From positions 379,878 to 443,877 of the forward strand of contig CAVRKE010000002.1 of assembly GCA_963722305.1 (NCBI GenBank): DNA of 64,000 nucleotides, in the 5' to 3' direction. Under the pieces are notes generated by a model. The model was given only the letters and a program-made list of their open reading frames with translations. It was not told the origin of the DNA and made no database searches. How positions within the stretch are numbered: position 1 is the first letter of the stretch; the number at the start of each line of letters is the position of its first letter. Origin of the DNA: Candidatus Levyibacteriota bacterium. Its GTDB lineage: Bacteria; Patescibacteriota; Microgenomatia; Levybacterales; UBA12049. Both the position numbers and the translations under genes were made by a program. This document shows, piece by piece, positions 1 to 59,162 of the stretch.

Positions 1-2
1 AT

Positions 3-18000: not shown

Positions 18001-21000
18001 CTATTAATAATAGTCTGACGGTAAGTGGCGTTGCTACCTTTAATGGCGGAGCAACAGTGGCAACCAACCAAAGTTTTGCTGCTAACGGACCATCTACCTT
18101 TACCCCCGGAAGTAGTAACAATATTATCTTTAACACCGGCAGTAGCTCTTTCTTTGTCTTGAATAATTTAACTTCCCCATCAACTGCCGGAACAGCGATT
18201 TGTTTGGACTCTTCAAATAATGTCACCAAATGCGGCGGCGCAACCTTCTCACTCCAAGCTGCTTATGTTGGAGGAAATACCATTACTACTACCAATAACC
18301 GAAATATCTCTTTCACTTTGGCAGACACCGCCATCGATTCAAACTTTGTTATCACCACTGCCGCAAACTCTACCGGAGAAACCCAATTCTTAAGGGCCGA
18401 CGGAACAGCCAATAACAATCCCAACGAGTTGGTTCTAATCCAAAATCTAAATACCCAAACAGCTCTACCGGTTGGCTTAAAAATTGCCGGCGTCAGCGGT
18501 GGAAACGTTACTACTGCTCTTGATCTTTCCGATGCCAACATTACCACCGCCATTGACTTGGGAGCAAACAACATTGCCGCCACCCACTTTAACCTAAATG
18601 GCTCTAACGGTAATATTACAACCAGTGGAACTCTGGCAGTTAATAGCGGCAGTATTACTTCTACTGCCGGAACAGCAGCAATCTTTAATAGCGGAGTGTC
18701 AAATCTTTCGATTGGCCAAGCAGCCAGTACCTTAAGTTTGGGTGCAACATCCGGGACTACGACTATTAATAATGTGACTCTTTCTCTGCCTAATGCTACT
18801 GCCGTTAATGCTTCCAATGCCACCGGTAACTTCTACTCTTTAACCACCGGTGGCGGTTATAGCTCAACCGGAGCAACAATTGACAACAATGGCAATATTC
18901 AAACCAAAGGTTCATTAACGGTTGATAGCTCTTCCACCTTAACCGGGAATGTTACCACTGCCGGCACTCTGGCAGTTAATAGCGGCAGTATCACTTCTAC
19001 TGCCGGGACGGCATCGATATTTAATAGTGGGGTGTCAAATCTTTCGATTGGCCAAGCTGCCAGTACTTTAAGTTTGGGTGCAACATCCGGAACTACGACT
19101 ATTAATAATAACCTGGCGGTAAGTGGCGTTGCTACTTTTAACGGCGGGGCAACGGTTGCAACCAACCAAAGTTTTGCCGCTAACGGACCGTCTACCTTTA
19201 CTCCTGGAAACAGTAACAATTTAACAATTAATACAACCGGAAATTCTTTTGTTAACATTACCGGACTGCAAACCGCTACCGGAACTTTGGTTTGTCTTGA
19301 TTCTTCCAATAACGTTGTAATGTGCTCAACTACTTCTATTTCTTTACAAGGAGCATATACCGGCGGCAACACCATCACTACCACTAATGCCAGAGATATC
19401 GGTTTCACTTTGGCAGATACGGCCTCCGATTCAAACTTTGTGGTTACAACAGCAGCCGGTTCAACCGGAGGAACAGAGTTTATCAGAGCCGATGGTTTGG
19501 CAGCGGCAGACCCAAATCAATTGGTCTTAATTGATAATGCCAGTACTAGTAGACAATTACCAACCGCATTAAAGATTACCTCAAGCGGAGGAACAGGCAT
19601 CGGAACAGCGCTGGATGTTTCTGATGCTTCTATTGTTACAGCCATTGCTTTAGGGACAAATGATATAAGCGGTACCAATTTCTCTGTCAATGGCACTAAT
19701 GGCAATATTACCAGTAGCGGAAATCTAACTCTTAACGGTTCGACTATTACTACTACCTCAACCGGAACTGCTTCCGTATTTAACAGTAATGCCTTAACCT
19801 TTAATATGGGAGGAGCAGCCACCAATGTTAATATCGGGGCTACTTCCGGTACAGCAACTATTAATAATGCCACCCTTTCTCTACCCCATGCTACCGCTAT
19901 TAATGCCGGCAATGCCTTATTAACGATTGATTCAACTAACATCGGCGGAGGTTACGGCAACACCGGAGTGACCATTTCTAATGCCGGCAATATCCAAGCC
20001 AACGGCACTTTAACGGTGGATGAAAATTCTCTTCTTTCTGGAAATGCCAGTGTTAGTGGAACCTTAGCCGTCAACGATGTAACCTACCTTAATTCAGCGC
20101 TAAACGTCACCGGAGTGGCAACATTTGGCAATGATGTCCAGGTTAACAACGGTAATCTGACAACTACTACTGCCGGAACCGCCAATGTCTTCAACACCAA
20201 TGCTACCGGATTAAATATTGGCGGAGCTGCTACAGCTGTGAATATCGGGGCAACCAGTGGTACTACTACTATTAATAGTGGCACCCTTTCTTTGCCTAAT
20301 GCCACTGCGGTTACTGCCGGCAGTGCTTTGCTAACTATTGACTCTGCTTCGATTGGTGGAGGGTATGGTAATACCGGGGTAACAATTTCCAATACCGGCA
20401 ATATCCAAGCCAACGGCACTCTAACCATTGGTAGCACTTCCGACCTTAAAGGACAAGTTACCGCCGAAGCCGGTATCAAAGTTAACGGTACAGGTTCTAC
20501 TGCGGATATCACTACCGATAAATCAACTGCTACTCTATTTAATACCACTGCTACCACCGTTAATCTGGGTGGGGCTGCCACAGCTGTGAATATCGGGGCA
20601 ACCAGTGGTACTACTACTATTAATAACAACCTGGCGGTAAGTCTGGTTGATAATAGTGCTAATGCCTTCAGTGTCTATGAAGGAGCCAATAGCTATCTTA
20701 ATGTCAGCACTGTGGATAGCAGTGAGAATGTCGCTTTTGGTAATGGTAGTACCAATCCTACCTACTCCTTCCTGGGTAGTGGAGCGACTACCTTTACCGG
20801 AGATATTAATGCCAACAGTGGAACTATTGCGACTAATAAAACTGCTGCCAGTCTATTTAACTCCACTGTTACCAATCTTGGCCTAGGAGGCGCTGCTACC
20901 ACTTTAACAATGGGCGCAACCAGTGGCACTGCTACTATTAGAAATGCAATCATTTCTCTACCTAATGCTACACAAGTTAATGCTGCCAATGCCAGCGGTA

Positions 21001-22643
21001 ACTTTAACTCCCTAACCACCGGCGGAGGTTATGGCTCAACCGGAGCAACTATTGGCAGCAGTGGCAATATTCAAAGCAAAGGAACCCTAACTATTGATTT
21101 AACCTCTACTCTCACCGGTCTGGTTACCGCCAGTTCCGGAGTAAAGATTAACGGTGCCTCTACTGCGGATATCACTACCGATAAGTTAACTGGCAATATC
21201 TTTAATGCTACTGCTACTACCGTTAATCTGGGTGGGGCTGCCACAGCTATCAATATCGGGGCAACATCCGGTACTACTACTATTAATAATAACCTGGCGG
21301 TAAGTGGCATTGCTACCTTTAATGGTGGGGCAACTGTTGCAACTAATCAAAACTTTGCTGCTAATGGGCAATCAACGTTTACTCCGGGCGATACCAATAA
21401 TGTCACTGTTAATTTAGGGACCAGTTCTTTCTTAGTATTAAATAATTTAACTACTCCGGTCACTGCCGGAGTATCCCTTTGTTTAGATTCTTCAAACAAC
21501 GTCACGAAGTGTTCAAGTACTACTGTTACCTTACAATCTGCTTATGCTGGTGGCAACACCATTACTACTTCCGATAATCGGGATATTGCCTTTAATCTGG
21601 CGGCAACAGGAGCAGATTCCAACTTTACGGTTACCACTGCTGCGGGTGGGATTGGTTATTCTGCTTTTGTTAGAGCAGATGGTTCAGCCAGCTTAGATCC
21701 TAGCCAATTGGTCTTAATCCAGAATTTGAACACCGGAAGAAGTTTGCCGGTTGGTCTAAAGATTGCCGGAGTCAATGGTGGTAATGTCACTACCGGAATT
21801 GATTTAACGGATAGTTATCTGACAACCGCTATTGATGTCGGTGGAAATATTATTAAAGGCACTGACTTCTCTATTACCGGCTCAAACGGTAATATTACTA
21901 CCTCAGGTACAGTAGCGGTTAACAGTGGCAGTATTACTACTACCTACGCAACCGGTAATGTCTTTAACAGTGTGGCATCCACTCTTAATCTAGGAGGAGC
22001 GGCAACCAATATTAATATCGGGGCAACTAGTGGTACAGCGACTATTAAAAATGCCATTGTTTCCCTACCTAATGCTACACAAGTTAATGCCAGTAATGCC
22101 GCCGGTAACTTTAACTCTCTAACCACCGGTGGAGGTTATACATCAACCGGAGCAACGATTGATAACAGCGGTAATATCCAAGCCAATGGTAATTTAACTA
22201 TTATCGGAACCTCTGACCTTAACGGTAATACTACTGTTGGCGCAGCCTTAGGAGTTACCGGCAATGTTTCGGTTAATACCAATAAATTCACCATTGATGC
22301 TTCAACCGGGAATACGGTCATCGGTGGAACATTAACCGTTACCGGGAATACCTCCCTTTCCACTCTTAATACTTCGGGACTGGCAACCCTAAACAGTGCC
22401 TCTGTTACTAATAATGAGACAGTGGGAGGAGCATTAACAGTGACCGGTGTTTCTACCTTTAACGGCGGAGCAACCGTTGCTTCAGGACAAAACTTCCTGG
22501 CCCAGGGTCAATCAACCTTTACACCCTCTGCCAGTAGTGGTATTACCGTTAATACTACCAATGCCAATACCTTCTTTAGATTGAATGGATTAAGTACTCC
22601 AGCAGCAGCCGGAGTGGCCCTATTGTCTGGATTCATCCAATAA
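3..22643 (+). CDS. Giant T/N/G/S-rich modular repeat protein, N-terminal/central part (5' partial; ORF track start 66 is an internal TTG, frame is open back to bp 3). Probable extracellular fibre/adhesin.
   Basis: 7525-aa ORF with no stop between bp 3 and 22643. Extreme low-complexity composition. Recurrent module boundary motif Cys-x9-11-Cys then LQxAYxxGNTITT (about 17 times here). Beta-strand-like repeats such as GNITTSGTLAVNGGSITTT. Internal perfect tandem arrays. The stop at 22643 coincides with a 1-nt insertion relative to the repeat consensus. Confidence 0.8.
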   Translation, partial: FTNELPYGQIVAPTAINDYFVLGGSTVETGTLTFNPAAANLTIGTNNTGSGGQNGTLTLYSAGNAVTDTYLTTNNNGDLLIPTNNVGIGATPTDLDADSNPFKLEVAGSIGPNQNGVYDLGSPTMQYRNLYLTGQTTSGGNITIANTSPSITFTDTTPLENEYEINVDHSQFTVTNNTTGANAITVNANGNIDLAGGSLATGCTIDNATGNLSCSGSGTFGNGLTVTTGAVNVTGTSGALSLSGLGASSIALTGANNLLITANNFNATATGINNTAIGTDLQSSGAFTTLSASGTVTLSNLPFNGPVYATAGGVLTSEQYLSPSRGGTGLDASAAPNGSLLIGNGTGYTLATISGSLNQVNVTNGAGTITLSLPQDIALTSTPTFTGMNLTSTNNQLVLGNTNAANHTLTINSPSQTANVTALIPSLTNPGGDTFVFAEQAQTLDNKTIGSSGLVFSGATADINTQSGKDLTVSTTGLGTQIVLSSVVKLGTIASAPSYPNTATTLCRDDTSGQISQCPANAANVDLQQAYNAGNTITTNNNNNITFNLAGGETTSFVLNNSGTAPAFVINDMNAGLGTVLEVQSATNPTLTVLENGTLSTVGNLITTGTGSITSASTLTAQATSNQLVLGTGSATTTFNSAAATAQTVNIPELLTSDSDTFAFVNEAQTLLNKTIGSSGLVFSGATADINTQSGKDLTVSTTGLGTQIVLSSVVKLGTIASAPSYPNTATTLCRDDTSGQISQCPANAANVDLQQAYNAGNTITTNNNNNIGFTLANGESTQFTLANAGNATSAFVISDANAAHNALQILSGATPTLTLGINGDITTPGNITTNSGGTITSAGLLTGSNGLTVTTGAINLTGTSGALNLSGLSASSIALTGANNLLITANNFNVTGTGINNTAIGATTQSSGAFTTLSASGTVTLSNLPFNGPVYATAGGVLTSEQYLSTTRGGTGLDTSLAQNGELLIGNGAGLSLGYIGGTLNQINVASTSGTITLSLPQDIALTSSPTFAGMNLTNTANQLMLGGSGAVTTISSTSSANQTITIPTLLTSNIDSFAFLNEAQTLTNKTIGSTGLVFSGPDTSADITTVSDQNLTLTPNGSGQIVLGSVVQLAADLPSAPTSATTLCRDDAAPHQIVQCPANAMNVTLQEAYNAGNTITTNNNNNIGFTLANGESTQFTLANAGNATSAFVISDANAAHNALQILSGATPTLTLGINGDITTTGALSSGNITSSGTITSQAVNNQLVLGNGNTTTINAIASSSSSWTATIPALTGNDTFVFTNQEQTLTNKSLVDGSTYLVNENYQTRRVQFDLSELQTDGVTRVITVPDMNGSLCLTTGNCAGTGGVVGGSGNVNRLAKFTADGSTIGNSNILDDGSLITALSGLQMAKLADATGGTPLENSNIFTLQGSYWTGGAAANATFGLQNIVINNSPLSYKLSFQNTNGTEVASLSQNGELTLSSLTANGPVYSNNGTLNSEQYLSTVRGGTGLDTSEATNGELLIGNGAGLSLGYLTGTPNQISIASTAGAINFSLPQDIALTSTPTFAALSLTNSVNQLTLGTTGAITTVNSAATGNQTVTIPALLTSNSDTFVFASEAQTLQNKTIGSSGLVFSGLDANADITTVSSQNLTLTPNGSGQIVLSNITQLGNLPSAPISPINPPSTLCRNNDNGQIVQCSANSLNVTLQQAYQAGNTITTSNLYHNLAFNLTENTQFTLNNAGSATSAFVITDSNPNNNALQILSGTTPTLSLGVNGNVSTSGTMIFTGTGTNITTISNQNLTLTPNGSGEIVLSNTTQLGSLPSAPISPTIPPTTLCRNNDNSEVIQCPANALNVTLQQAYNAGNTITTNSNNNIGFVLSSGETTSFTLANNGDSTGFALTNAGLGTAMIINDTNAATNNALVVESGGAPTLTISENGSLSTVGVLTAGATANQLVLGNETTGNHTTTISATPPTSDMTAVIPALTSGIGSDTFVFENQTQTLTNKTIGSTGLAFTGPDTNNDIYTISNQNLSLSAGTGQIVLTANAVQVSALSAAVGGTVVCQNSSNQLSVCSSNALNVTLQQAYEAGNTITTTEDRGIAFTLGTGLNTSFNLTNNGTASAAFNLANNGTGSGIYLTNASTGNGVIINDTNSPTNIALQVQSNTTPTLTINANGNLTTSGNVSSSGNILTTGTGTITSAGLLTASNGLTLTTGAVNITGTSGALALSGLSASSIALSAGNNLTITADNFNTTSTGINSTAIGATTASSGAFTTLSSTGNTTLSSTALSTFTAGNTSGLTTINGSFVNINANGQGSTLSLGLADNTPSAFVLTNGATDYINVNTSSISPAISFGAVNTNFNGNVSMLGTLGVTGETTLSANLGVSGSATVGGTLAVTGNTSLSTVNTSALATLNSASVTNNETVGGILAVNGNFTVGNNQFTVEALTGNTSIAGTLGVTGATTLSSTLDVLGLSTFNGGALIPTGQAFNASGSATFTPGTNNSVSINTDYSNGSYLTINGIGTAVGNAICLDSSNRVVSCNGAPFGLQAAYNTGNTITTTEDRGIAFTLGTGLNTSFNLTNNGTASAAFNLANNGTGSGIYLTNASTGNGVIINDTNSPTNIALQVQSNTTPTLTINANGNLTTSGNVSSSGNILTTGTGTITSAGLLTASNGLTLTTGAVNITGTSGALALSGLSASSIALSAGNNLTITADNFNTTSTGINSTAIGATTASSGAFTTLSSTGNTTLSSTALSTFTAGNTSGLTTINGSFVNINANGQGSTLSLGLADNTPSAFVLTNGATDYINVNTSSISPAISFGAVNTNFNGNVSMLGTLGVTGETTLSANLGVSGSATVGGTLAVTGNTSLSTVNTSALATLNSASVTNNETVGGILAVNGNFTVGNNQFTVEALTGNTSIAGTLGVTGATTLSSTLDVLGLSTFNGGALIPTGQAFNASGSATFTPGTNNSVSINTDYSNGSYLTINGIGTAVGNAICLDSSNRVVSCNGAPFGLQAAYNTGNTITTTEDRGIAFTLGTGLNTSFNLTNNGTASAAFNLANNGTGSGIYLTNASTGNGVIINDTNSPTNIALQVQSNTTPTLTINANGNLTTSGNVSSSGNILTTGTGTITSAGLLTASNGLTLTTGAVNITGTSGALALSGLSASSIALSAGNNLTITADNFNTTSTGINSTAIGATTASSGAFTTLSSTGNTTLSSTALSTFTAGNTSGLTTINGSFVNINANGQGSTLSLGLADNTPSAFVLTNGATDYINVNTSSISPAISFGAVNTNFNGNVSMLGTLGVTGETTLSANLGVSGSATVGGTLAVTGNTSLSTVNTSALATLNSASVTNNETVGGILAVNGNFTVGNNQFTVEALTGNTSIAGTLGVTGATTLSSTLDVLGLSTFNGGALIPTGQAFNASGSATFTPGTNNSVSINTDYSNGSYLTINGIGTAVGNAICLDSSNRVVSCNGAPFGLQAAYNTGNTITTTEDRGIAFTLGTGLNTSFNLTNNGTASAAFNLANNGTGSGIYLTNASTGNGVIINDTNSPTNIALQVQSNTTPTLTINANGNLTTSGNVSSSGNILTTGTGTITSAGLLTASNGLTLTTGAVNITGTSGALALSGLSASSIALSAGNNLTITADNFNTTSTGINSTAIGATTASSGAFTTLSSTGNTTLSSTALSTFTAGNTSGLTTINGSFVNINANGTGNGLSLGIVGNTTNAFNLAEGTNNYLNVNTTSGAENVAFGNGNTNPSFSFLGNGNFNTGTGSAYLNGNTFVTDSNTFNVGTGATSLGGTLAVSGITTLNSNLQLLPYGTGTGQTSELQLYDLAANGSYNISLKAPDQLTSNTSYTLPSDDQAAANYVLTYQDQGILKWVNVNLIGGDITAVGNVLQGDAFTGNDLGNTLWFNGPGASVNQFTTALTGSLVSQPETITLPANSGTVALIQPRIAQTATGSSPLIFLNDTGTANLVQLQNNTADVFVVDKDGNVAINGGNITTTQNSASLFNSNATQISIAGAGTTISVGASTGTTTINNKLAVTGNLEANGILNANNTFNAYGVANIGDGGDTITLNGSNLTMTATGTFVTNLADNTDSVFVIKQGSNQYLNVTTTTGAQNIAFGNTTTNPTYTFNGSGLTTFGGNIAVNGGSLISSSSAASIFNTNVNNLNIGGAASVISIGAPGSGITTINDNAAVSGNLAVNGPLSADITSTTNTATVFNSGVTNLSIGNAASTLSLGATGGTTTVNSKLNVTGNLTANAEFVANGQITLQPSGTNGINIITDADSLLNIGGLSIPETSAYSLCLDSSNNVVKCPPSASTLQSAYNGGNSILTGNARDIVFNLADTSTDSNFIVNTLSGSTGATEFVRNNGIGTASPTQLVLIDNADTTHILPIGLKIGSSGTSGVTTAIDVSDPSIVTALSFGSNDISGNYFTVEGSSGNVTTNGTLAVNSGSITTTSTGTTAIFNTNTTNLSIGGAATTLTLGATTGTATIRNGSIELPNATALDAGNALLTIDSASIGGGYGNTGVTISNSGNIQANGTLTVDNTSVLTGDVTMGGNLAVNGGNITTITSTGNIFNSPTTLNIGQAATTVSLGATSGTTTINNNLNVSGNLTTVGAVSFTPGTNGQNITFNTSGNNRQLVISGLPTQTGTLVCINGTNGQITQCASDAISLQSAYVGGNTITTTNNRDISFTLANTSTNSNFVVTTAADSTGYSVFQRATGSTTYAPDQLILVNNADTSMPVTTGIKLTGLFGTGIDVSNSGITTGLALGSSAISGNNFSVSSGGNITASGNLSLNGSTITTTNNTSAASVFNTNAPTLNMGGAATTISIGATSGTATINNATLSLPHATAINAANAALSVTSASIGGGYGNTGVTISNSGNIQANGTLTVDSTSVLTGDVTMGGNLAVNGGYITTTSTSPSYIFNTNTPELHIGEGASTLSLGATTGTTTVNNTLTVENDLNAYGNVIFTPATSGQNISFNTNGSNSKLYITGLPTATGTLVCINGTNGQITQCASDAISLQSAYVGGNTITTTNNRDISFTLANTSTNSNFVVTTAADSTGYSVFQRATGSTTYAPDQLILVNNADTSMPVTTGIKLTGLFGTGIDVSNSGITTGLALGSSAISGNNFSVSSGGNITASGNLSLNGSTITTTNNTSAASVFNTNAPTLNMGGAATTISIGATSGTATINNATLSLPHATAINAANAALSVTSASIGGGYGNTGVTISNSGNIQANGTLTVDSTSVLTGDVTMGGNLAVNGGYITTTSTSPSYIFNTNTPELHIGEGASTLSLGATTGTTTVNNTLTVENDLNAYGNVIFTPATSGQNISFNTNGSNSKLYITGLPTATGTLVCINGTNGQITQCASDAISLQSAYVGGNTITTTNNRDISFTLANTSTNSNFVVTTADNSTGYSAFVRANGSGVADPMQLILVANQSTTRSIAAGIKIQSAAGKITNGLDLSDPNIVNALSLGSSNVTANNFNIEGATGNITTSGTLAVNGGSITTTYTNTANIFNTNASGLNIGGAATTISLGATSGTTTINNQTLALPNATVVSAGNATLSVDTTNIGGGYGQTGVTISNTGNIQANGTLTVDNSSLLAGDVTTNGTINANGGTIATTYTNTANIFNTNASGLNIGGAATTISLGATSGTTTINNDLEVKGSATIDTNLTALGQSTFTPSGSNGVTINTNNNALLKVSGLSSALGSVICVDSSNNIRTCSNAALSLQAAYNAGNTITTTNARDIGFTLADTASDSNFVVTTAAGSTGGTEFIRADGLAAADPNQLVLIDNASTSRQLPTALKITSSGGTGIGTALDVSDASIVTAIALGTNDISGTNFSVNGTNGNITSSGNLTLNGSTITTTSTGTASVFNSNALTFNMGGAATNVNIGATSGTATINNATLSLPHATAINAGNALLTIDSTNIGGGYGNTGVTISNAGNIQANGTLTVDNTSLLTGDVTMGGNLAVNGGYITTTSTSPSYIFNANTPELHIGEGASTISLGATSGTTTINNSLTVSGVATFNGGATVATNQSFAANGPSTFTPGSSNNIIFNTGSSSFFVLNNLTSPSTAGTAICLDSSNNVTKCGGATFSLQAAYVGGNTITTTNNRNISFTLADTAIDSNFVITTAANSTGETQFLRADGTANNNPNELVLIQNLNTQTALPVGLKIAGVSGGNVTTALDLSDANITTAIDLGANNIAATHFNLNGSNGNITTSGTLAVNSGSITSTAGTAAIFNSGVSNLSIGQAASTLSLGATSGTTTINNVTLSLPNATAVNASNATGNFYSLTTGGGYSSTGATIDNNGNIQTKGSLTVDSSSTLTGNVTTAGTLAVNSGSITSTAGTASIFNSGVSNLSIGQAASTLSLGATSGTTTINNNLAVSGVATFNGGATVATNQSFAANGPSTFTPGNSNNLTINTTGNSFVNITGLQTATGTLVCLDSSNNVVMCSTTSISLQGAYTGGNTITTTNARDIGFTLADTASDSNFVVTTAAGSTGGTEFIRADGLAAADPNQLVLIDNASTSRQLPTALKITSSGGTGIGTALDVSDASIVTAIALGTNDISGTNFSVNGTNGNITSSGNLTLNGSTITTTSTGTASVFNSNALTFNMGGAATNVNIGATSGTATINNATLSLPHATAINAGNALLTIDSTNIGGGYGNTGVTISNAGNIQANGTLTVDENSLLSGNASVSGTLAVNDVTYLNSALNVTGVATFGNDVQVNNGNLTTTTAGTANVFNTNATGLNIGGAATAVNIGATSGTTTINSGTLSLPNATAVTAGSALLTIDSASIGGGYGNTGVTISNTGNIQANGTLTIGSTSDLKGQVTAEAGIKVNGTGSTADITTDKSTATLFNTTATTVNLGGAATAVNIGATSGTTTINNNLAVSLVDNSANAFSVYEGANSYLNVSTVDSSENVAFGNGSTNPTYSFLGSGATTFTGDINANSGTIATNKTAASLFNSTVTNLGLGGAATTLTMGATSGTATIRNAIISLPNATQVNAANASGNFNSLTTGGGYGSTGATIGSSGNIQSKGTLTIDLTSTLTGLVTASSGVKINGASTADITTDKLTGNIFNATATTVNLGGAATAINIGATSGTTTINNNLAVSGIATFNGGATVATNQNFAANGQSTFTPGDTNNVTVNLGTSSFLVLNNLTTPVTAGVSLCLDSSNNVTKCSSTTVTLQSAYAGGNTITTSDNRDIAFNLAATGADSNFTVTTAAGGIGYSAFVRADGSASLDPSQLVLIQNLNTGRSLPVGLKIAGVNGGNVTTGIDLTDSYLTTAIDVGGNIIKGTDFSITGSNGNITTSGTVAVNSGSITTTYATGNVFNSVASTLNLGGAATNINIGATSGTATIKNAIVSLPNATQVNASNAAGNFNSLTTGGGYTSTGATIDNSGNIQANGNLTIIGTSDLNGNTTVGAALGVTGNVSVNTNKFTIDASTGNTVIGGTLTVTGNTSLSTLNTSGLATLNSASVTNNETVGGALTVTGVSTFNGGATVASGQNFLAQGQSTFTPSASSGITVNTTNANTFFRLNGLSTPAAAGVALLSGFIQ
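6211..11063 (+). repeat. Intragenic tandem array, 1395-bp unit (465 aa), about 3.5 copies, no differences found by eye.
   Basis: Protein block AAYNTGNTITTTEDRGIAF...ICLDSSNRVVSCNGAPFGLQ repeats verbatim three times plus a partial copy. Antisense ORFs 6353..6883, 7748..8278 and 9143..9673 are identical. Copy 4 diverges near 11063. Confidence 0.9.
13899..16184 (+). repeat. Intragenic tandem array, 1053-bp unit (351 aa), about 2.2 copies, apparently identical.
   Basis: GTLVCINGTNGQITQCASDAISLQSAYVGGNTITTTNNRDISF... repeats twice verbatim with a 180-bp third partial copy. Antisense ORFs 14144..14527 and 15197..15580 are identical. Confidence 0.9.
17171..20026 (+). repeat. Segmental duplication: about 660 bp at 17171-17830 repeated at 19367-20026 (offset 2196 bp), within a more diverged 2196-bp periodicity.
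   Basis: Identical antisense ORFs 17321..17746 and 19517..19942. Protein block GNTITTTNARDIGFTLADTASDSNF...GNIQANGTLTVD is duplicated. Confidence 0.85.
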
Positions 22644-23995
22644 TGTTACTCAGTGTTCTTCCAATACGGTTACCTTACAAACTGCTTATGCGGGTGGTAA
22701 TACCATTACTACCACCACCGGCAGAAACATTGACTTTACTCTGGGCAGTGGACTGGCTACTTCCTTTAACTTGACTAATCAAGGAACTGCCACAGGCTTT
22801 AATCTTAACAATACCTCAAGCGGTAATGCTTTAGCTGTTACCTCGGGAGGAATTAATGCTTTAACTATTGATAATAACGGGAACTCAACCAGCAGCGGTA
22901 ACTTTACTACTTCCGGAAATATCGCTACCGCTAATAGCGGTACTATTACCTCCAATGGGTTATTGACAGCTTCAAACGGTTTAACGGTTACTACCGGCAA
23001 TGTGAATATAACGGGAACAGCAGGAGCAATCAGTCTCTCCAGCCTTAATGCCTCCAGTATTGCTTTAAGTGGTACTAATAATCTAACGATTACTGCCAAT
23101 AACTTCAATGTCTCGGCGAACTGGGATTAATAATACCGCTATTGGTGCAGGTAGTACTCAATCAACTGGTGCCTTTACCACTTTATCCTCAAATAACAAT
23201 ACCACCTTGGCATCAGGGGCGGGAGCAACTCTCACTTTGGGTAATACCACCGGGACGGTTACTCTTAACGGTTCTACTGTTAGTATTAATAGTAATGGAG
23301 CCGGTAACGCTTTATCCTTAGGTATTGCCGGTAATACTGCTTCTGCTTTCAATGTCTCCCAAGGGAGTAATAAATACATTAATGTTAATACCAGTACCGG
23401 GACAGAGAATGTCGCTTTTGGTAATACTAGTACCAATCCTTCCTATTCCTTCTTAGGAACAGGACAAACTACCTTTGGCGGAAATGTTTCTGTTTCGGGA
23501 ACCTTAGGAGTTACCGGGAATACTTCCCTCTCTACCGTTAATACCTCAGGTCTGGCAACTCTTGATAGTTTACTGACTGAAAACTTTGCCACAGTTTCCG
23601 GAACACTAACCGTTAATGATCTCACCCAACTTAACTCTACCTTAGGAGTTAGTGGGAATACCTCCTTAGGAGGAACCCTGGGAGTTACCGGCAATGTTTC
23701 GGTTAATACCAATAAATTCACCATTGATGCTTCAACCGGGAATACGGTCATCGGTGGAACATTAACCGTTACCGGGAATACCTCCCTTTCCACTCTTAAT
23801 ACTTCGGGACTGGCAACCCTAAACAGTGCCTCTGTTACTAATAATGAGACAGTGGGAGGAGCATTAACAGTGACCGGTGTTTCTACCTTTAACGGCGGAG
23901 CAACCGTTGCTTCAGGACAAAACTTCCTGGCCCAGGGTCAATCAACCTTTACACCCTCTGCCAGTAGTGGTATTACCGTTAATACTACCAATGGC
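22644..23995 (+). pseudogene. Frameshifted junction segment: degenerate copy of the 1422-bp repeat unit linking the two giant ORFs. ORF-track ORFs 22771..23130 and 23108..24010 are its out-of-frame pieces.
   Basis: Aligned to the downstream copy (24114-25432) there are single-base insertions near 22622 (ccctattgtc vs ccctttgtc), 23117 (tctcggcgaactggg vs tctcgggaaccggg) and 23994 (accaatggccaatacc vs accaatgccaatacc). The Cys-loop at 24040-24100 is also decayed (second Cys lost). Confidence 0.6.
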
Positions 23996-25432
23996 CAATA
24001 CCTTCTTTAGATTGAATGGACTAAGTACAGCAATCCTGGTACCCATTTGTTTGGATTCATCCAATAATGTTATTGTCCTGTACCAATCTACCGTTAGTTT
24101 ACAGACTGCTTATCATGGTGGTAATACCATTACTACCACCACCGGCAGAAACATTGACTTTACTCTGGGCAGTGGACTGGCTACTTCCTTTAACTTGACT
24201 AATCAAGGAACTGCCACAGGCTTTAATCTTAACAATACCTCAAGCGGTAATGCTTTAGCTGTTACCTCGGGAGGAATTAATGCTTTAACTATTGATAATA
24301 ACGGGAACTCAACCAGCAGCGGTAACTTTACTACTTCCGGAAATATCGCTACCGCTAATAGCGGTACTATTACCTCCAATGGGTTATTGACAGCTTCAAA
24401 CGGTTTAACGGTTACTACCGGCAATGTGAATATAACGGGAACAGCAGGAGCAATCAGTCTCTCCAGCCTTAATGCCTCCAGTATTGCTTTAAGTGGTACT
24501 AATAATCTAACGATTACTGCCAATAACTTCAATGTCTCGGGAACCGGGATTAATAATACGGCTATTGGTGCAGGTAGTACTCAATCAACTGGTGCCTTTA
24601 CCACTTTATCCTCAAATAACAATACCACCTTGGCATCAGGGGCGGGAGCAACTCTCACTTTGGGTAATACCACCGGGACGGTTACTCTTAACGGTTCTAC
24701 TGTTAGTATTAATAGTAATGGAGCCGGTAACGCTTTATCCTTAGGTATTGCCGGTAATACTGCTTCTGCTTTCAATGTCTCCCAAGGGAGTAATAAATAC
24801 ATTAATGTTAATACCAGTACCGGGACAGAGAATGTCGCTTTTGGTAATACTAGTACCAATCCTTCCTATTCCTTCTTAGGAACAGGACAAACTACCTTTG
24901 GCGGAAATGTTTCTGTTTCGGGGACCTTAGGAGTTACCGGGAATACTTCCCTCTCTACCGTTAATACCTCAGGTCTGGCAACTCTTGATAGTTTACTGAC
25001 TGAAAACTTTGCCACAGTTTCCGGAACACTAACCGTTAATGATCTCACCCAACTTAACTCTACCTTAGGAGTTAGTGGGAATACCTCCTTAGGAGGAACC
25101 CTGGGAGTTACCGGCAATGTTTCGGTTAATACCAATAAATTCACCATTGATGCTTCAACCGGGAATACGGTCATCGGTGGAACATTAACCGTTACCGGGA
25201 ATACCTCCCTTTCCACTCTTAATACTTCGGGACTGGCAACCCTAAACAGTGCCTCTGTTACTAATAATGAGACAGTGGGAGGAGCATTAACAGTGACCGG
25301 TGTTTCTACCTTTAACGGCGGAGCAACCGTTGCTTCAGGACAAAACTTCCTGGCCCAGGGTCAATCAACCTTTACACCCTCTGCCAGTAGTGGTATTACC
25401 GTTAATACTACCAATGCCAATACCTTCTTTAG
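22690..25432 (+). repeat. Two tandem copies of a 1422-bp (474-aa) unit. Copy 1 (22690-24010) carries 3 single-base insertions; copy 2 (24114-25432) is in frame.
   Basis: Antisense ORF pairs 22779/24203 (offset 1424), 23158/24581 and 23443/24866 (offset 1423) are identical. These offsets fit a clean 1422-bp unit plus the insertions remaining downstream in copy 1. Confidence 0.85.
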
Positions 25433-28400
25433 ATTGAATGGACTAAGTAGTAATCCTGGTACACCTATCTGTTTAGACTCCTCCAATAATGTCATTGCCT
25501 GTGCCAATGCTTCCCTTAGTTTACAGAATGCCTATCTTGGTGGTAATACCATTACTACCACCACCGGCAGAAACATTGACTTTACCCTGGGCAGTGGACT
25601 GGCTACTTCCTTTAACTTGACTAATCAAGGAACTGCCACAGGCTTTAATCTTAACAATACCTCAAGCGGTAATGCTTTAGCTGTTACCTCGGGAGGAATT
25701 AATGCTTTAACTATTGATAGTAGTGGAAATCTCACTACCAATGGCAACTTCAGTCAGGGAGGAACAGCCACTACCTTCTCAACCGGTACCGGTAATGTCT
25801 CCTTGAATGGTAATACTGCTGTTACCGGCAGTAATACCTTTACGGTTGGAACAGGAGCAACCTCCTTAGGAGGAACCCTGGGAGTTACCGGCAATGTTTC
25901 GGTTAATACCAATAAATTCACCATTGATGCTTCAACCGGGAATACGGTCATCGGTGGAACATTAACCGTTACCGGGAATACCTCCCTTTCCACTCTTAAT
26001 ACTTCGGGACTGGCAACCCTAAACAGTGCCTCTGTTACTAATAATGAGACAGTGGGAGGAGCATTAACAGTGACCGGTGTTTCTACCTTTAACGGCGGAG
26101 CAACCGTTGCTTCAGGACAAAACTTCCTGGCCCAGGGTCAATCAACCTTTACACCCTCTGCCAGTAGTGGTATTACCGTTAATACTACCAATGCCAATAC
26201 CTTCTTTAGATTGAATGGACTAAGTAGTAATCCTGGTACACCTATCTGTTTAGACTCCTCCAATAATGTCATTGCCTGTGCCAATGCTTCCCTTAGTTTA
26301 CAGAATGCCTATCTTGGTGGTAATACCATTACTACCACCACCGGCAGAAACATTGACTTTACTCTGGGCAGTGGACTGGCTACTTCCTTTAACTTGACTA
26401 ATCAAGGAACTGCCACAGGCTTTAATCTTAACAATACCTCAAGCGGTAATGCTTTAGCTGTTACCTCGGGAGGAATTAATGCTTTAACTATTGATAGTAG
26501 TGGAAATCTCACTACCAATGGCAACTTCAGTCAGGGAGGAACAGCCACTACCTTCTCAACCGGTACCGGTAATGTCTCCTTGAATGGTAATACTGCTGTT
26601 ACCGGCAGTAATACCTTTACGGTTGGAACAGGAGCAACCTCCTTAGGAGGAACCCTGGGAGTTACCGGCAATGTTTCGGTTAATACCAATAAATTCACCA
26701 TTGATGCTTCAACCGGGAATACGGTCATCGGTGGAACATTAACCGTTACCGGGAATACCTCCCTTTCCACTCTTAATACTTCGGGACTGGCAACCCTAAA
26801 CAGTGCCTCTGTTACTAATAATGAGACAGTGGGAGGAGCATTAACAGTGACCGGTGTTTCTACCTTTAACGGCGGAGCAACCGTTGCTTCAGGACAAAAC
26901 TTCCTGGCCCAGGGTCAATCAACCTTTACACCCTCTGCCAGTAGTGGTATTACCGTTAATACTACCAATGCCAATACCTTCTTTAGATTGAATGGACTAA
27001 GTAGTAATCCTGGTACACCTATCTGTTTAGACTCCTCCAATAATGTCATTGCCTGTGCCAATGCTTCCCTTAGTTTACAGAATGCCTATCTTGGTGGTAA
27101 TACCATTACTACCACCACCGGCAGAAACATTGACTTTACCCTGGGCAGTGGACTGGCTACTTCCTTTAACTTGACTAATCAAGGAACTGCCACAGGCTTT
27201 AATCTTAACAATACCTCAAGCGGTAATGCTTTAGCTGTTACCTCGGGAGGAATTAATGCTTTAACTATTGATAGTAGTGGAAATCTCACTACCAATGGCA
27301 ACTTCAGTCAGGGAGGAACAGCCACTACCTTCTCAACCGGTACCGGTAATGTCTCCTTGAATGGTAATACTGCTGTTACCGGCAGTAATACCTTTACGGT
27401 TGGAACAGGAGCAACCTCCTTAGGAGGAACCCTGGGAGTTACCGGCAATGTTTCGGTTAATACCAATAAATTCACCATTGATGCTTCAACCGGGAATACG
27501 GTCATCGGTGGAACATTAACCGTTACCGGGAATACCTCCCTTTCCACTCTTAATACTTCGGGACTGGCAACCCTAAACAGTGCCTCTGTTACTAATAATG
27601 AGACAGTGGGAGGAGCATTAACAGTGACCGGTGTTTCTACCTTTAACGGCGGAGCAACCGTTGCTTCAGGACAAAACTTCCTGGCCCAGGGTCAATCAAC
27701 CTTTACACCCTCTGCCAGTAGTGGTATTACCGTTAATACTACCAATGCCAATACCTTCTTTAGATTGAATGGATTAAGTACTCCAGCAGCAGCCGGAGTG
27801 GCCCTTTGTCTGGATTCATCCAATAATGTTACTCAGTGTTCTTCCAATACGGTTACCTTACAAACTGCTTATGCGGGTGGTAATACCATTACTACTACCA
27901 CCGGCAGAAACATTGACTTTACCCTGGGCAGTGGACTGGCTACTTCCTTTAACTTGACTAATCAAGGAACTGCCACAGGCTTTAATCTTAACAATACCTC
28001 AAGCGGTAATGCTTTAGCTGTTACCTCGGGAGGAATTAATGCTTTAACTATTGATAGTAGTGGAAATCTCACTACCAATGGCAACTTCAGTCAGGGAGGA
28101 ACAGCCACTACCTTCTCAACCGGTACCGGTAATGTCTCCTTGAATGGTAATACTGCTGTTACCGGCAGTAATACCTTTACGGTTGGAACAGGAGCAACCT
28201 CCTTAGGAGGAACCCTGGGAGTTACCGGCAATGTTTCGGTTAATACCAATAAATTCACCATTGATGCTTCAACCGGGAATACGGTCATCGGTGGAACATT
28301 AACCGTTACCGGGAATACCTCCCTTTCCACTCTTAATACTTCGGGACTGGCAACCCTAAACAGTGCCTCTGTTACTAATAATGAGACAGTGGGAGGACTT

Positions 28401-31400
28401 CTAACTGCTAATGCCGGAGTTAAAGTTAACGGGACAGGTTCCACTGCGGATATAACCACGGATAAATCAACTGCCAATATCTTTAATACCACAGCAACCA
28501 CAGTTAATCTGGGTGGGGCTGCCACTACTATCTCCTTGGGGGCAACCAGTGGTACTACTACTATTAATAATAACCTGGCGGTAAGTCTGGTTGATAATAG
28601 TGCTTATGCCTTCAGTGTCTATGAAGGAGCCAATAGCTATCTTAATGTCAGCACCGTGGATAGCAGTGAGAATGTCGCTTTTGGCAATACTAGTACCAAT
28701 CCTTCCTATTCCTTCTTAGGTAGTGGAGCTACTACCTTTACCGGAAATATTAATGCCAACTCCGGAGTGATTGCTACTAGCCAATCATCAGCCAGCATTT
28801 TTAACTCTACTGCTACTACTGTAAACCTTGGTGGTGCGGCAACCAATATTAATATCGGGGCAACCAGTGGTACAGCGACTATTAAAAACGCCATTGTTTC
28901 CTTGCCTAATGCTACACAAGTTAATGCCAGTAATGCCGCCGGTAACTTTAACTCTCTAACCACCGGTGGAGGTTATACATCAACCGGAGCAACTATTGGC
29001 AGCAGTGGTAATATTCAGGCCAAAGGAACCTTAACTATTGATCTAACCTCTACCCTCACCGGTCTGGTTACTGCCAGCTCCGGAGTAAAGATTAATGGTA
29101 CCTCCACTGCGGATATAACCACGGATAAATCAACTGCTACTCTGTTTAATACCACCGCTACCACCGTTAATATTGGCGGGGCTGCCACAACTATCTCCTT
29201 GGGGGCAACCAGTGGTACTACTACTATTAATAATAACCTGGCGGTAACAGGAACAGGTACTTTTACCGGAGCGCTTACTGCCAACAATAACTTTAGTGCC
29301 AACGCCCAATCAACATTTACACCGTCTTCGGGTAACGGTGTACTTATCAATGTTGGTAATTCAAATTCCTTCTTGAGGTTAACTGGGCTAACCAGCGCAG
29401 CCGGCAACCCAATTTGCTTAGATAGCTCAAATAATGTTATCGCCTGCGCTAATGCCGCTCTTAGTCTTCAGAATGCCTACATCGGTGGCAACACCATTAC
29501 TACTTCCGATAATCGGGATATTGCCTTTAATCTGGCGGCAACAGGAGCAGATTCCAACTTTACGGTTACCACTGCTGCGGGTGGGATTGGTTATTCTGCT
29601 TTTGTTAGAGCAGATGGTTCAGCCAGCTTAGATCCTAGCCAATTGGTCTTAATCCAGAATTTGAACACCGGAAGAAGTTTGCCGGTTGGTCTAAAGATTG
29701 CCGGAGTCAATGGTGGTAATGTCACTACCGGAATTGATTTAACGGATAGTTATCTGACAACCGCTATTGATGTCGGTGGAAATATTATTAAAGGCACTGA
29801 CTTCTCTATTACCGGCTCAAACGGTAATATTACTACCTCAGGTACAGTAGCGGTTAACAGTGGCAGTATTACTACTACCTACGCAACCGGTAATGTCTTT
29901 AACAGTGTGGCATCCACTCTTAATCTAGGAGGAGCGGCAACCAATATTAATATCGGGGCAACTAGTGGTACAGCGACTATTAAAAATGCCATTGTTTCCC
30001 TACCTAATGCTACACAAGTTAATGCCAGTAATGCCGCCGGTAACTTTAACTCTCTAACCACCGGTGGAGGTTATACATCAACCGGAGCAACGATTGATAA
30101 CAGCGGTAATATCCAAGCCAATGGTAATTTAACTATTATCGGAACCTCTGACCTTAACGGTAATACTACTGTTGGCGCAGCCTTAGGAGTTACCGGCAAT
30201 GTTTCGGTTAATACCAATAAATTCACCATTGATGCTTCAACCGGGAATACGGTCATCGGTGGAACATTAACCGTTACCGGGAATACCTCCCTTTCCACTC
30301 TTAATACTTCGGGACTGGCAACCCTAAACAGTGCCTCTGTTACTAATAATGAGACAGTGGGAGGAGCATTAACAGTGACCGGTGTTTCTACCTTTAACGG
30401 CGGAGCAACCGTTGCTTCAGGACAAAACTTCCTGGCCCAGGGTCAATCAACCTTTACACCCTCTGCCAGTAGTGGTATTACCGTTAATACTACCAATGCC
30501 AATACCTTCTTTAGATTGAATGGACTAAGTAGTAATCCTGGTACACCTATCTGTTTAGACTCCTCCAATAATGTCATTGCCTGTGCCAATGCTTCCCTTA
30601 GTTTACAGAATGCCTATCTTGGTGGTAATACCATTACTACCACCACCGGCAGAAACATTGACTTTACCTTAGCATCATCTGGTGGCATCGGTTATGACGC
30701 TAACTTTAATATTACAACCGCTAACGGCTCAACTAGTTCAACCATTTTCTCACTGGCAGATGGGTCAAACACTACAGTTCCTAATCAATTAGTTTTACTT
30801 GATAACAAAAACACCACTAATATTTTGCCAAGCGCTATTAAAGTTACTTCTTCCGGAGGTGGAGCAATTACAAACGCTATCGACCTTTCCGATTCTCATA
30901 TTGTTAATGCCTTATCTTTAGGAACCGGCAATATTACTTCCGCTCACTTTACGCTTACCGGCACAAGCGGCAACATTTCCACCGATGGGCTCCTGACTGT
31001 TGGCGCCGGAGTTAAAGTTAACGGGACAGGTTCCACTGCGGATATAACCACGGATAAATCAACTGCTACTCTGTTTAATACCACCGCTACCACCGTTAAT
31101 ATTGGCGGGGCAGCCACAGCTGTTAATATCGGGGCAACCAGTGGTACTACTACTATTAATAGTGGCACCCTTTCTTTGCCTAATGCCACAGCGGTTACTG
31201 CCGGCAGTGCTCTACTGACTATTGATTCTGCTTCGATTGGTGGAGGGTATGGTTCAACCGGGGTAACTATCAGTAACACCGGCAATATCCAGGCAGACGG
31301 CACTTTAACCATTGGCAGCACTTCCGACCTTAAAGGACAAGTAACAGCAGAAGCCGGAGTTAAAGTTAACGGGACAGGTTCCACTGCGGATATAACCACG

Positions 31401-45002: not shown

Positions 45003-45033
45003 GCTGAAAACCGTTTTAAGATAAGCTTGGGTA

Positions 45034-45063
45034 TTGTAATCTAATTCGTCCAACTGATATTAT
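45034..45063 (+). promoter_or_regulatory. Possible sigma70-like promoter for ppsA: TTGTAA, 18-nt spacer, TATTAT. No Shine-Dalgarno before the ATG.
   Basis: Motif spacing read from the sequence 16-45 nt upstream of the ATG at 45079. Confidence 0.3.
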
Positions 45064-45078
45064 AAATATACCTGCCCT

Positions 45079-47538: not shown

Positions 47539-47568
47539 TTTAAGTAGTATAATAATCTAAGACCAAAT

Positions 47569-49209: not shown

Positions 49210-49224
49210 GTCCCCTGTTTTGTT

Positions 49225-51537: not shown

Positions 51538-51566
51538 AAAACAGATAATTCCCTACCGGATTTAAA

Positions 51567-51595
51567 GATATAAACATTAAAACAAAATTTCACAA
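51567..51595 (-). promoter_or_regulatory. Possible sigma70-like promoter for the Wzy_C/TPR gene (minus strand): TTGTGA, 17-nt spacer, TATATC. Divergent from the IS1595-fragment promoter.
   Basis: Read from the reverse complement of 51567-51595. ATG lies at 51537. Confidence 0.35.
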
Positions 51596-51627
51596 GACAG
51601 TCAATAAGCAATTTAGGTATTTATCCC

Positions 51628-51656: not shown

Positions 51657-51663
51657 TTAATTT

Positions 51664-52455: not shown

Positions 52456-52472
52456 CTCAAGGGTTTTAATAA

Positions 52473-59153: not shown

Positions 59154-59162
59154 GTGATGAAA

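What the first reader, a model, noticed from the sequence alone, without database searches (positions are those of the whole stretch)
22600..24120. The two giant ORFs are separated only by a decayed repeat copy with three +1 insertions, so this may be one gene, a pseudogene, or an error hotspot
ORF1 stops at 22643 exactly where a single extra base (ccctATtgtc vs ccctttgtc) shifts the frame relative to the otherwise identical downstream repeat copy. Two further single-base insertions near 23117 and 23994 carry the homologous reading through three frames before ORF2 resumes in frame. None of them is in a homopolymer tract. The same 1.4-kb stretch also has substitutions destroying the second Cys of the module loop (ICLDSSNNVIVLYQSTVS). 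This suggests either recent inactivation of a single giant gene of about 45 kb, a genuine two-gene arrangement with a degenerate linker, or consensus errors in a repeat.
Basis: seen in the sequence. Interest (0 to 1): 0.7.

Follow-up and report, generated by a model that had tools for sequence, protein, structure and literature searches.

The report
Frameshifted repeat splits one giant gene
The two giant reading frames are halves of one enormous fibre-protein gene of a tiny candidate-phyla bacterium, and the three extra bases that split it are most likely long-read assembly errors in a near-identical repeat, or otherwise a very recent knock-out, so the finding is ordinary.

Summary
Compared with sibling repeat copies, three single extra bases (A22622, C23117, G23993) move the homologous reading through frames 0→1→2→0. 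Deleting them gives one ORF of 14,977 aa that still runs off the left edge of the window.

It is one gene, not two:
- A syntenic orthologue (~85% nt identity) reads straight through all three sites.
- dN/dS is 0.15–0.20 on both sides of the break and inside the disrupted unit.
- Complete family members carry an N-terminal membrane anchor and the C-terminal cassette (Peptidase_G2 autoproteolytic domain, …NWWIVN end) in one chain.
- ORF2 has no start, promoter or terminator of its own.

Whether the insertions are real cannot be settled without reads. I favour consensus error (~0.65):
- Five window-specific 1-nt indels fall within 1.5 kb of a 99.7%-identical tandem duplicate; I found no other frame-disrupting indel in the remaining ~43.5 kb.
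- Indels equal substitutions (3:3), and all three substitutions are synonymous.
- Two insertions place a foreign base inside a TTT or GGG run, which slippage does not produce.
- The orthologue's Flye-style contig has the same kind of clustered +1 insertions at other repeat positions and none in ~10 kb of flanking genes.

A real, very recent inactivation gets ~0.3. Interest is low.

The parts
1..22643 (+). ORF1: the 5' part of the giant fibre-protein gene. The frame is open from window position 3, so the true start lies upstream of the window. It ends at the TAA at 22641–22643, which comes into frame only because of the extra A at 22622.
22570..22692 (+). A-type Cys-loop junction cassette (…NGLSTPAAAGVALCLDSSNNVTQCSSNTVTLQTAY…) that carries insertion 1. 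Its twin cassette at 27754 is intact.
22622..22622 (+). Insertion 1: an extra A inside a TTT run (ccctAttgtc). It shifts the homologous reading from frame 0 to frame 1. It is absent from the sibling copy at 27806 and from both A-type cassettes of the orthologue.
22693..23992 (+). Unit U1, the disrupted repeat unit. It is a tandem duplicate of U2 (24117–25415), differing by 3 synonymous substitutions and 1 indel in 1,300 nt. The homologous frame stays open throughout.
23117..23117 (+). Insertion 2: an extra C inside a GGG run (tcggCgaac). It shifts the reading from frame 1 to frame 2. Two synonymous substitutions follow within 21 nt (23122, 23137). It is absent from U2 and from the orthologue.
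23993..23993 (+). Insertion 3: an extra G (aatGgcc). It shifts the reading from frame 2 back to frame 0. It is absent from 6 window copies and 6 orthologue copies.
24021..24116 (+). X-type junction cassette, the first Cys-loop of ORF2. 'STAILVPIC' resembles the orthologue's 'ST(V)ILVHAIC' cassette (my reading of its downstream frame with the frame break repaired). A window-specific +T at 24076 and −1 at 24088 put 12 nt out of frame and remove the second Cys, which is present in the other Cys-loops listed in the window.
24117..25415 (+). Unit U2, the intact twin of U1.
23877..45002 (+). ORF2 as listed mechanically (GTG at 23877). It is really the 3' part of the same gene. The homologous frame resumes at 23994, and residues before that are out-of-frame repeat sequence.
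42249..42467 (+). Peptidase_G2 IMC autoproteolytic-cleavage domain match (PF11962, 28.3 bits against a cutoff of 25) in the C-terminal cassette.
44781..44996 (+). K1-lyase_C-like terminal domain (PF24146, 25.3 bits, just under the cutoff of 27), ending in …KFNWWIVN as in family members.

Best explanation
The window holds the larger part of one giant gene: at least 14,977 codons, with its 5' end outside the window. It belongs to a Patescibacteria/CPR bacterium. It encodes a Thr/Gly/Asn/Ser-rich fibrous surface protein built from about 30 modules separated by short disulfide-type Cys-loop cassettes. The chain ends in a tail-fibre-like C-terminal cassette containing a Peptidase_G2 intramolecular-chaperone/autocleavage domain.

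Shown:
- ORF1 and ORF2 are the two halves of this gene.
- They are separated only by three +1 insertions in and around unit U1, one member of a 99.7%-identical tandem pair.
- The ancestral and orthologous state is a continuous frame.

Inferred:
- The three insertions, and probably the +T/−1 pair at 24076/24088, are consensus errors of a long-read metagenome assembly.
- They would arise where reads from near-identical units, different junction cassettes or copy-number variants are piled on one another.
- In the organism the gene would therefore be intact, producing a single membrane-anchored fibre whose folding depends on the C-terminal chaperone domain.
For: One gene:
- The repaired ORF is continuous.
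- A syntenic orthologue, ENA ERZ25039519 contig_92462 (L085/L086), shares the PPDK / 546-aa / Wzy flanks and is ~85% identical in DNA. It reads in one frame through 2/2, 1/1 and 6/6 sites homologous to insertions 1–3.
- dN/dS is 0.15–0.20 upstream of, inside and downstream of the break.
- The C-terminal 1,200 aa has 16,113 relatives, with the match near or at the C-terminal end in most of the listed full-length proteins. Full-length members P0117 and P0118 start with a hydrophobic stretch that I read as a TM anchor.
- There is no promoter-like or terminator-like site in 22400–24300.

Errors rather than mutations:
- Five window-specific 1-nt indels lie in 1,467 nt; I found no other frame-disrupting indel in the other ~43.5 kb. 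That stretch includes 4.9 kb of 99.7% tandem repeats that differ by substitutions only.
- U1 and U2 differ by 3 substitutions, all synonymous, against 3 frameshifting insertions in and at the edges of U1, only one of them (C23117) inside the U1/U2 comparison. Known bacterial spectra give roughly 1 indel per 10 substitutions (my own knowledge).
- Two insertions put a non-templated base inside TTT or GGG, which is not the slippage signature.
- All the insertions lie inside sequence whose 31-mers are multi-copy.
- The orthologue's Flye-style contig shows the same signature at different places: ATA[C]ATG, GAG[A]TTA, TTC[A]CCA, ATT[G]GCT, GTA[C]GTA. Five of these fall within 290 nt. It has at least 10 frame switches in the giant gene and none in ~10 kb of flanking genes.
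- More distant homologues of the repeat modules on other contigs, some with long-read-style names (L083 'np1212', L084), and a 75%-identical syntenic relative (JGI L087) are likewise shredded by frame switches. In L087 even PPDK is split.
Against: - No reads were available, so none of the five indels has been checked directly.
- The window is otherwise very clean. An independent Logan assembly of run ERR11594402 is 100% identical over 15,095 + 1,645 nt of unique sequence. No homopolymer-type frameshift is seen anywhere in the window.
- Other equally repetitive stretches carry no indel, so a general 'repeats are badly polished' argument does not by itself explain why only U1 is hit.
- The X cassette's odd 'AILV' reading is shared with the orthologue. 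At least part of the local oddity is therefore genuine biology.
- A real, error-prone duplication event that created U1–X–U2 could have produced a cluster of indels in one step.
- The technology and pipeline behind the window are inferred from contig naming of related records, not known.
Confidence: 0.65

Rival explanations
1. The insertions are real. The sequenced population carries a very recently inactivated giant gene, or a dominant knock-out allele of it. The insertions may have arisen together with the U1–X–U2 tandem duplication through error-prone recombination or repair synthesis. ORF1 would then give a truncated fibre lacking the C-terminal chaperone cassette, and ORF2 would not be translated.
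For: - Unique sequence in the window is confirmed base-for-base by an independent assembly.
- No typical homopolymer-length errors are seen.
- Relative to the orthologue, which has a single U between two cassettes, the window has an extra X–U unit. A recent rearrangement therefore did happen at exactly this place.
- The X cassette type is genuine.
- Large repeat-rich surface genes are frequent targets of inactivation (general knowledge).
Against: - It needs three to five independent frameshifts within 1.5 kb and none elsewhere in at least 45 kb.
- These come with only three substitutions, all synonymous, in the same unit.
- Two of the insertions are non-templated bases, which are rare among spontaneous insertions.
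- The same odd signature turns up at other positions in an independent assembly of a relative whose gene is equally under purifying selection.
Confidence: 0.3
2. A functional split or recoding. ORF1 and ORF2 would be two separately (or coupled) translated genes with U1 as a linker, or the ribosome would pass the three sites by +1 frameshifting so that a full-length protein is still made.
For: - The three shifts sum to +3, so ORF2 is in register with ORF1.
- The homologous frame is open throughout U1.
- A GGAGG lies 15 nt upstream of the GTG at 23877.
Against: - The orthologue has no insertion, stop or start at any of the sites.
- The three contexts share no slippery or stimulatory motif.
- The in-frame TAA follows insertion 1 after 6 codons.
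- The GGAGG is part of the repeat unit and also occurs in the copy at 22425.
- There is no promoter-like or terminator-like site.
- ORF2 would start mid-module without the N-terminal anchor that complete family members have.
- A sum of +3 is expected a quarter of the time for three random ±1 events.
Confidence: 0.04

Closest known systems
Giant (>10,000 aa) repeat-rich surface proteins of uncultivated bacteria, e.g. the Omnitrophota giant genes (bioRxiv 10.1101/2023.11.21.568195; bioRxiv 10.64898/2026.06.07.730766)
   Same: - A single ORF of tens of kilobases built from diverged tandem modules.
- Recovered only when repeats are spanned by long reads or resolved by curation.
- The second paper counts 3,650 proteins of at least 10 kaa in its Nanopore metagenomes, so the size class is known.
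   Different: - The host here is a Patescibacteria/CPR bacterium (PPDK 77% identical to a Levyibacteriota MAG).
- The modules have no Pfam match.
- The C-terminus is a tail-fibre-type chaperone cassette, not the enzyme or dockerin architectures described for Omnitrophota.
Phage tailspike and tail-fibre proteins with a C-terminal intramolecular-chaperone / autocleavage domain (Pfam Peptidase_G2 PF11962, as in phi29 gp12; K1-lyase_C PF24146)
   Same: - The Peptidase_G2 IMC domain scores above Pfam's cutoff (28.3 against 25 bits).
- A K1-lyase_C-like domain sits at the very C-terminus.
- The domain follows a long β-strand-rich fibre. This implies that folding of the fibre depends on the C-terminal end (the function is taken from family knowledge, not tested here).
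   Different: - The gene is a chromosomal cellular gene flanked by PPDK and other housekeeping genes.
- It is 10–20 times longer than any phage fibre.
- PHROGs gives only marginal hits and PDB sequence search gives none.
The family of large CPR proteins ending in …NWWIVN (P0117 at 3,983 aa, P0118 at 5,468 aa, and others; unnamed in the databases)
   Same: - The C-terminal 1,200 aa matches 583 representatives at E ≤ 1e-30, near or at the C-terminal end in most of the listed full-length proteins.
- It shares the fibre-like T/G/S/N-rich body and the 'DVRG…GDLFTAS' motifs.
   Different: - This member is 3–10 times longer than the ones listed.
- The N-terminal anchor cannot be checked because it lies outside the window.
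Frameshift artefacts of long-read (Flye-type) metagenome assemblies in near-identical repeats
   Same: - Single-base indels confined to multi-copy sequence, while unique genes are clean.
- The same signature appears in the orthologous contig and in more distant relatives.
   Different: - The classic artefact is a homopolymer-length error, often a deletion (my own knowledge).
- Here the events are insertions of a foreign base. This fits mixed-copy consensus better than raw-read error, and it leaves a real mutation possible.

Membership tests
CPR giant-fibre family with …NWWIVN C-terminal cassette | Conserved C-terminal cassette located at the very C-terminus | tested here: met
   phmmer against 1.84 billion representatives gave 16,113 hits. 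The best hits were 70–76% identical, and most of the top matches run to the end of both the query and the target. ORF2 ends in KFNWWIVN, like P0082, P0103, P0117 and P0118.
CPR giant-fibre family with …NWWIVN C-terminal cassette | N-terminal transmembrane anchor on the same polypeptide | not testable with these tools
   The ORF1 frame runs off the left end of the window. P0117 and P0118 have the anchor, judged by eye from a hydrophobic stretch. ORF2 on its own has none.
Peptidase_G2 / tail-fibre intramolecular-chaperone proteins | Match to PF11962 above Pfam's gathering score | tested here: met
   28.3 bits against a cutoff of 25, E = 1.5e-6, but only profile positions 31–99 of 228 are covered.
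Peptidase_G2 / tail-fibre intramolecular-chaperone proteins | Autoproteolytic release of the C-terminal domain and trimeric β-helical fibre | not testable with these tools
   The AlphaFold2 model of one module was unusable (mean pLDDT 50.3). No PDB sequence match was found.
Two adjacent genes (operon) encoding separate proteins | Stop and start conserved at the same place in orthologues, with own initiation signals | tested here: not met
   The orthologue L086 reads through all homologous sites in one frame. There is no promoter-like or terminator-like site. Candidate starts lie in out-of-frame repeat sequence.
Programmed +1 ribosomal frameshift / recoding site | Conserved shift-prone motif at the site, conserved in relatives | tested here: not met
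   The three contexts share no motif. The insertions are absent from the orthologue and from all sibling copies.
Phase-variable contingency locus (slipped-strand switch) | Indel is a length change of a homopolymer or short tandem repeat | tested here: not met
   A is inserted into TTT, C into GGG, and G becomes GG. No simple-sequence tract is present.
Genuine frameshift pseudogene | Frameshifts present in the organism's DNA (read support) | not testable with these tools
   No reads were available. Exact-product look-up of the 300-aa ORF that needs insertions 2 and 3 found nothing. Two metagenome pattern scans found nothing.
Genuine frameshift pseudogene | Relaxed constraint (dN/dS near 1, stops accumulating in the old frame) | tested here: not met
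   dN/dS of repaired U1 against the orthologue is 0.146. The U1/U2 substitutions are 3/3 synonymous, and there are no stops in the homologous frame. This is compatible only with a very recent event.

The most novel reading that the evidence does not exclude
The three insertions are real, and the cell still makes the protein. Either three non-canonical +1 recoding events take place within 1.4 kb, or an N-terminal fibre (ORF1) and a separately initiated C-terminal fibre-plus-chaperone part (ORF2) are made and assemble afterwards. Either route would be an unprecedented way of expressing a 15,000-aa protein.
Probability: 0.03. Interest if true: 0.7.

Novelty: not a real feature. Interest (0 to 1): 0.18.

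Why it matters
The main value is for annotation. The record should carry one giant gene (at least 45 kb, at least 15,000 aa, probably at least 5% of a roughly 1-Mb CPR genome) rather than two ORFs and a gap. The junction should be flagged for read-level checking.

If the insertions were real, the case would show a CPR bacterium that has just lost its largest surface structure. That would be of moderate interest for how episymbionts attach to their hosts.

The giant fibre family itself is poorly described and may deserve study. So may the shuffling of its Cys-loop cassettes between modules. Neither is what the finding is about, and giant genes of this size class are already known.

Tried and rejected
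- Exact-product look-ups. PPDK was not on record. The 300-aa ORF 23108–24010, whose existence needs insertions 2 and 3, was not on record. No independent assembly therefore confirms or denies the insertions.
- Logan contigs of run ERR11594402 cover only window 42503–57597 and 62338–63982, not the junction.
- Two scans of JGI metagenome contigs used patterns that allowed either allele at insertion 3 (linked to the X cassette) and at insertion 2 (linked to U1-specific SNPs). Both returned 0 hits.
- The genome-contig scan with PPDK found the nearest species representative at only 77% identity and without a syntenic giant gene.
- A protein search with the repaired junction found nothing above 61% identity, so no same-species fragments exist in that database.
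- Pfam, NCBIfam and PHROGs on the modules gave no meaningful family. PDB sequence search of the C-terminus gave no hit.
- The AlphaFold2 model of module U2, using 19 paralogous modules as the alignment, had mean pLDDT 50.3 and was unusable, so no fold search was run.
- A literature search for the run accession gave 0 papers.
- I considered that inserted base A22622 was copied from B-type cassettes ('CCTAT'). I rejected this as evidence, because in codon register the two cassettes have no indel there.
- I considered that cassette X is a pure A/B chimera produced by the assembler. This was weakened because its 'AILV' reading and several 'A-like' patches are shared with the orthologue's cassette.
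- Another relative, L087 (JGI), is 75% identical and riddled with frameshifts, so it is useless for the junction.

Full report
**1. What is in the sequence**

The window carries two very long same-strand ORFs, 66..22643 and 23877..45002, both with codons starting at positions ≡0 mod 3. The ORF1 frame is already open at window position 3, so the gene starts upstream of the window.

The stretch between the ORFs is a repeat unit, not spacer. Window 22300–24300 aligns with 23730–25722 at 97.2%, and 22300–22876 aligns with 27484–28059 at 99.3% with a single gap. These alignments, together with a multiple alignment of all seven copies of the 'TFFRLNGL' junction, locate three single-base insertions:
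- A22622: ccctAttgtc.
- C23117: tcggCgaac.
- G23993: aatGgcc.

The homologous protein sequence continues without stops in frame 1 and then frame 2, and returns to frame 0 at 23994. Deleting the three bases gives one ORF of 14,977 codons with only the terminal stop.

Four details need adjusting:
- The TAA stop lies 19 nt after the inserted A, not at it.
- G23993 duplicates a G, while the other two insertions place a foreign base inside TTT and GGG.
- The missing second Cys in 'ICLDSSNNVIVLYQSTVS' comes from a +T (24076) / −1 (24088) pair that puts 12 nt out of frame, not from substitutions.
- The gene is longer than 45 kb.

**2. What the gene is**

The flanking genes are PPDK, an archaeal-type PEP carboxylase, an aminotransferase, a Wzy-like protein and a GT4 glycosyltransferase. 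PPDK's best matches are in Patescibacteria/CPR genomes, the closest being a Levyibacteriota MAG at 77%.

The repaired protein is 17.5% Thr, 12.8% Gly, 12.3% Asn and 11.5% Ser. It contains 30 modules marked by 'LQxAYxxGNxIxT'. Each is preceded by a short Cys-loop such as 'CLDSSNNVxxC'. The Cys-loop listing has 38 entries in all, and the X cassette at 24053 is missing from it because it lacks the second Cys.

The modules match no Pfam, NCBIfam or PDB entry. The C-terminal region does match:
- Peptidase_G2 IMC autoproteolytic domain, 28.3 bits against a cutoff of 25.
- A K1-lyase_C-like end, 25.3 bits against a cutoff of 27.

The last 1,200 residues have 16,113 relatives among 1.84 billion representatives, with the match near or at the C-terminal end in most of the listed full-length proteins (1–5.5 kaa), and the four sequences I read all end in …NWWIVN. 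Two full-length members, P0117 and P0118, begin with a hydrophobic stretch that I read as a transmembrane anchor.

The best reading is a membrane-anchored giant fibre or adhesin whose folding depends on a tail-fibre-type C-terminal chaperone. The function is inferred from family knowledge and not tested. An AlphaFold2 model of one module was unusable (pLDDT 50).

**3. One gene or two**

P0082, a 70%-identical relative of the C-terminus, led to ENA ERZ25039519 contig_92462 (L085/L086). This contig is syntenic: giant gene, then PPDK 820 aa, a 546-aa protein and a Wzy-like 770-aa protein. It is ~85% identical in DNA and colinear, with L086 309–12333 matching window 23660–35706.

From the contig start, the orthologue reads in one frame through a short module, an A-type cassette, one U unit and another A-type cassette. 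At the homologous positions it lacks the extra base in 2/2 cases for insertion 1, 1/1 for insertion 2 and 6/6 for insertion 3.

dN/dS between the window and the orthologue:

| Region compared | dN/dS |
|---|---|
| Window aa 8725–10714 | 0.16 |
| Window aa 7862–8719 | 0.175 |
| Repaired U1 | 0.146 |
| Window aa 11808–13207 | 0.20 |

Both halves and the 'linker' have therefore been kept as coding sequence in one register. ORF1 lacks the C-terminal cassette, and ORF2 would lack the N-terminal anchor. No promoter-like or terminator-like site occurs in 22400–24300. ORF2's possible start codons translate out-of-frame repeat sequence. The two-gene reading and any recoding reading are thus poorly supported.

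**4. Real mutation or consensus error**

No reads could be reached, so the evidence is indirect.

For error:
1. *Clustering.* Five window-specific 1-nt indels (22622, 23117, 23993, 24076, 24088) lie within 1,467 nt. I found no other frame-disrupting indel in the other ~43.5 kb of the gene. That stretch includes 3.5 tandem copies of 1,395 nt at 99.6–99.7% identity that differ only by substitutions.
2. *Indel-to-substitution ratio.* U1 differs from U2 by three substitutions, all third-position synonymous in the repaired frame. Three frameshifting insertions lie in and at the edges of the same unit, only one of them (C23117) inside the U1/U2 comparison. In spontaneous bacterial mutation indels are roughly ten times rarer than substitutions (my own knowledge).
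3. *Type of insertion.* A foreign base inside TTT or GGG is not what replication slippage gives.
4. *Location.* All sites lie in sequence whose 31-mers are multi-copy, at and inside one member of a 99.7% tandem pair. Reads that do not span the array cannot be placed there.
5. *Same signature in the orthologue.* Its Flye-style contig shows it at other positions: GTA[C]GTA, ACA[T]GCT, ATT[G]GCT, ATA[C]ATG, GAG[A]TTA and TTC[A]CCA. Five indels fall within 290 nt. There are at least 10 frame switches in the giant gene, some inside strongly conserved motifs, yet none in ~10 kb of flanking genes.
6. *Other relatives.* More distant homologues of the repeat modules on other contigs, some with long-read-style names, are also shredded by frame switches (L083/L084). 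In the syntenic relative L087 even PPDK is in seven pieces.

For a real event:
- The unique part of the window is base-perfect against an independent Logan assembly (100% over 16.7 kb).
- There are no homopolymer-length errors.
- Other repeats in the window are clean.
- The window has an extra X–U unit relative to the orthologue, so a recent rearrangement did occur at this place.
- The odd 'STAILVPIC' reading of cassette X is shared with the orthologue's 'ST(V)ILVHAIC' cassette (my reading of its downstream frame with the frame break repaired), so it is genuine.

A single error-prone duplication event could give clustered indels.

I put consensus error at about 0.65, real recent inactivation at about 0.30, and a functional split or recoding at 0.05 or less.

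**5. Comparison with what is known, and verdict**

Giant repeat-rich genes in uncultivated bacteria are established. One recent Nanopore study counts 3,650 proteins of at least 10 kaa (bioRxiv 10.64898/2026.06.07.730766; see also bioRxiv 10.1101/2023.11.21.568195). Frameshifted giant ORFs in long-read metagenome contigs are commonplace, as the relatives fetched here show.

The finding is best filed as a probable assembly artefact, or failing that an ordinary recent pseudogene, in one very large CPR fibre gene. The correct annotation is a single gene, and the junction needs read-level verification. Interest is low (0.18).

The side observations may be worth more than the frameshifts themselves. 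These are the unnamed …NWWIVN fibre family with a tail-fibre chaperone domain, and the exchange of Cys-loop cassette types between orthologous junctions.

Noticed in passing
window 1-66: The ORF1 frame is open from position 3, with no stop upstream of the listed TTG start. The giant gene therefore continues beyond the left edge of the window and is longer than 45 kb. Its true N-terminus, expected to be a TM anchor by analogy with P0117 and P0118, is not in the window.
   Followed up: partly
window 25450-25513 and 27784-27861 versus L086 2104-2180 and 4446-4512: The hypervariable Cys-loop cassettes come in discrete types: A, B and X. At orthologous junctions the relative carries the other type (window B against orthologue A, and window A against orthologue B). 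This suggests that cassettes shuffle between modules by gene conversion, possibly as surface variation.
   Followed up: partly
window 6211-11095: There are 3.5 tandem copies of a 1,395-nt unit (465 aa) at 99.6–99.7% identity, with substitutions only and no indels. Short reads could not resolve this, so the source assembly must rest on long reads or manual curation.
   Followed up: partly
window 1-45002 versus 45003-64000: The giant gene has 45.6% G+C and a strongly negative GC skew on the coding strand. The rest of the window has 38.9% G+C. This probably reflects Thr/Gly/Ala-rich codon usage, but a foreign origin was not excluded.
   Followed up: no
window 57575-57647 and 59154-60101: A tRNA-Asn(GTT) gene is followed about 1.5 kb downstream by an IS110-family transposase. 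The independent Logan contig L081 ends inside the tRNA gene.
   Followed up: no
window 45079-47538 and 53623-55131: A PPDK/PEP-synthase-type enzyme and an archaeal-type PEP carboxylase (PEPcase_2, full-length profile match) lie close together in a CPR genome. The nearest PPDK relatives include DPANN archaea as well as CPR bacteria.
   Followed up: no
L086 2887-2903, 8852, 10806-11092, ~16000-17100: The orthologous contig (ENA ERZ25039519 contig_92462) has at least 10 frame switches in its giant gene. Most are non-homopolymer +1 insertions clustered in repeats. Its flanking genes are intact. A TPR gene is inserted between its giant gene and PPDK that the window lacks.
   Followed up: partly
L087 12816-15285: In JGI metagenome contig 3300056807|Ga0562387_03598, a 75%-identical syntenic relative, PPDK is broken into seven ORFs. 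The record looks like an uncorrected long-read contig, so proteins derived from it are unreliable.
   Followed up: no
window 42503: The Logan contig L081 stops at 42503 inside the non-repetitive C-terminal part of the giant gene, although no 31-mer is repeated there within the window. The cause is unknown. It could be a repeat with the unseen 5' part of the gene, strain variation or a coverage drop.
   Followed up: no
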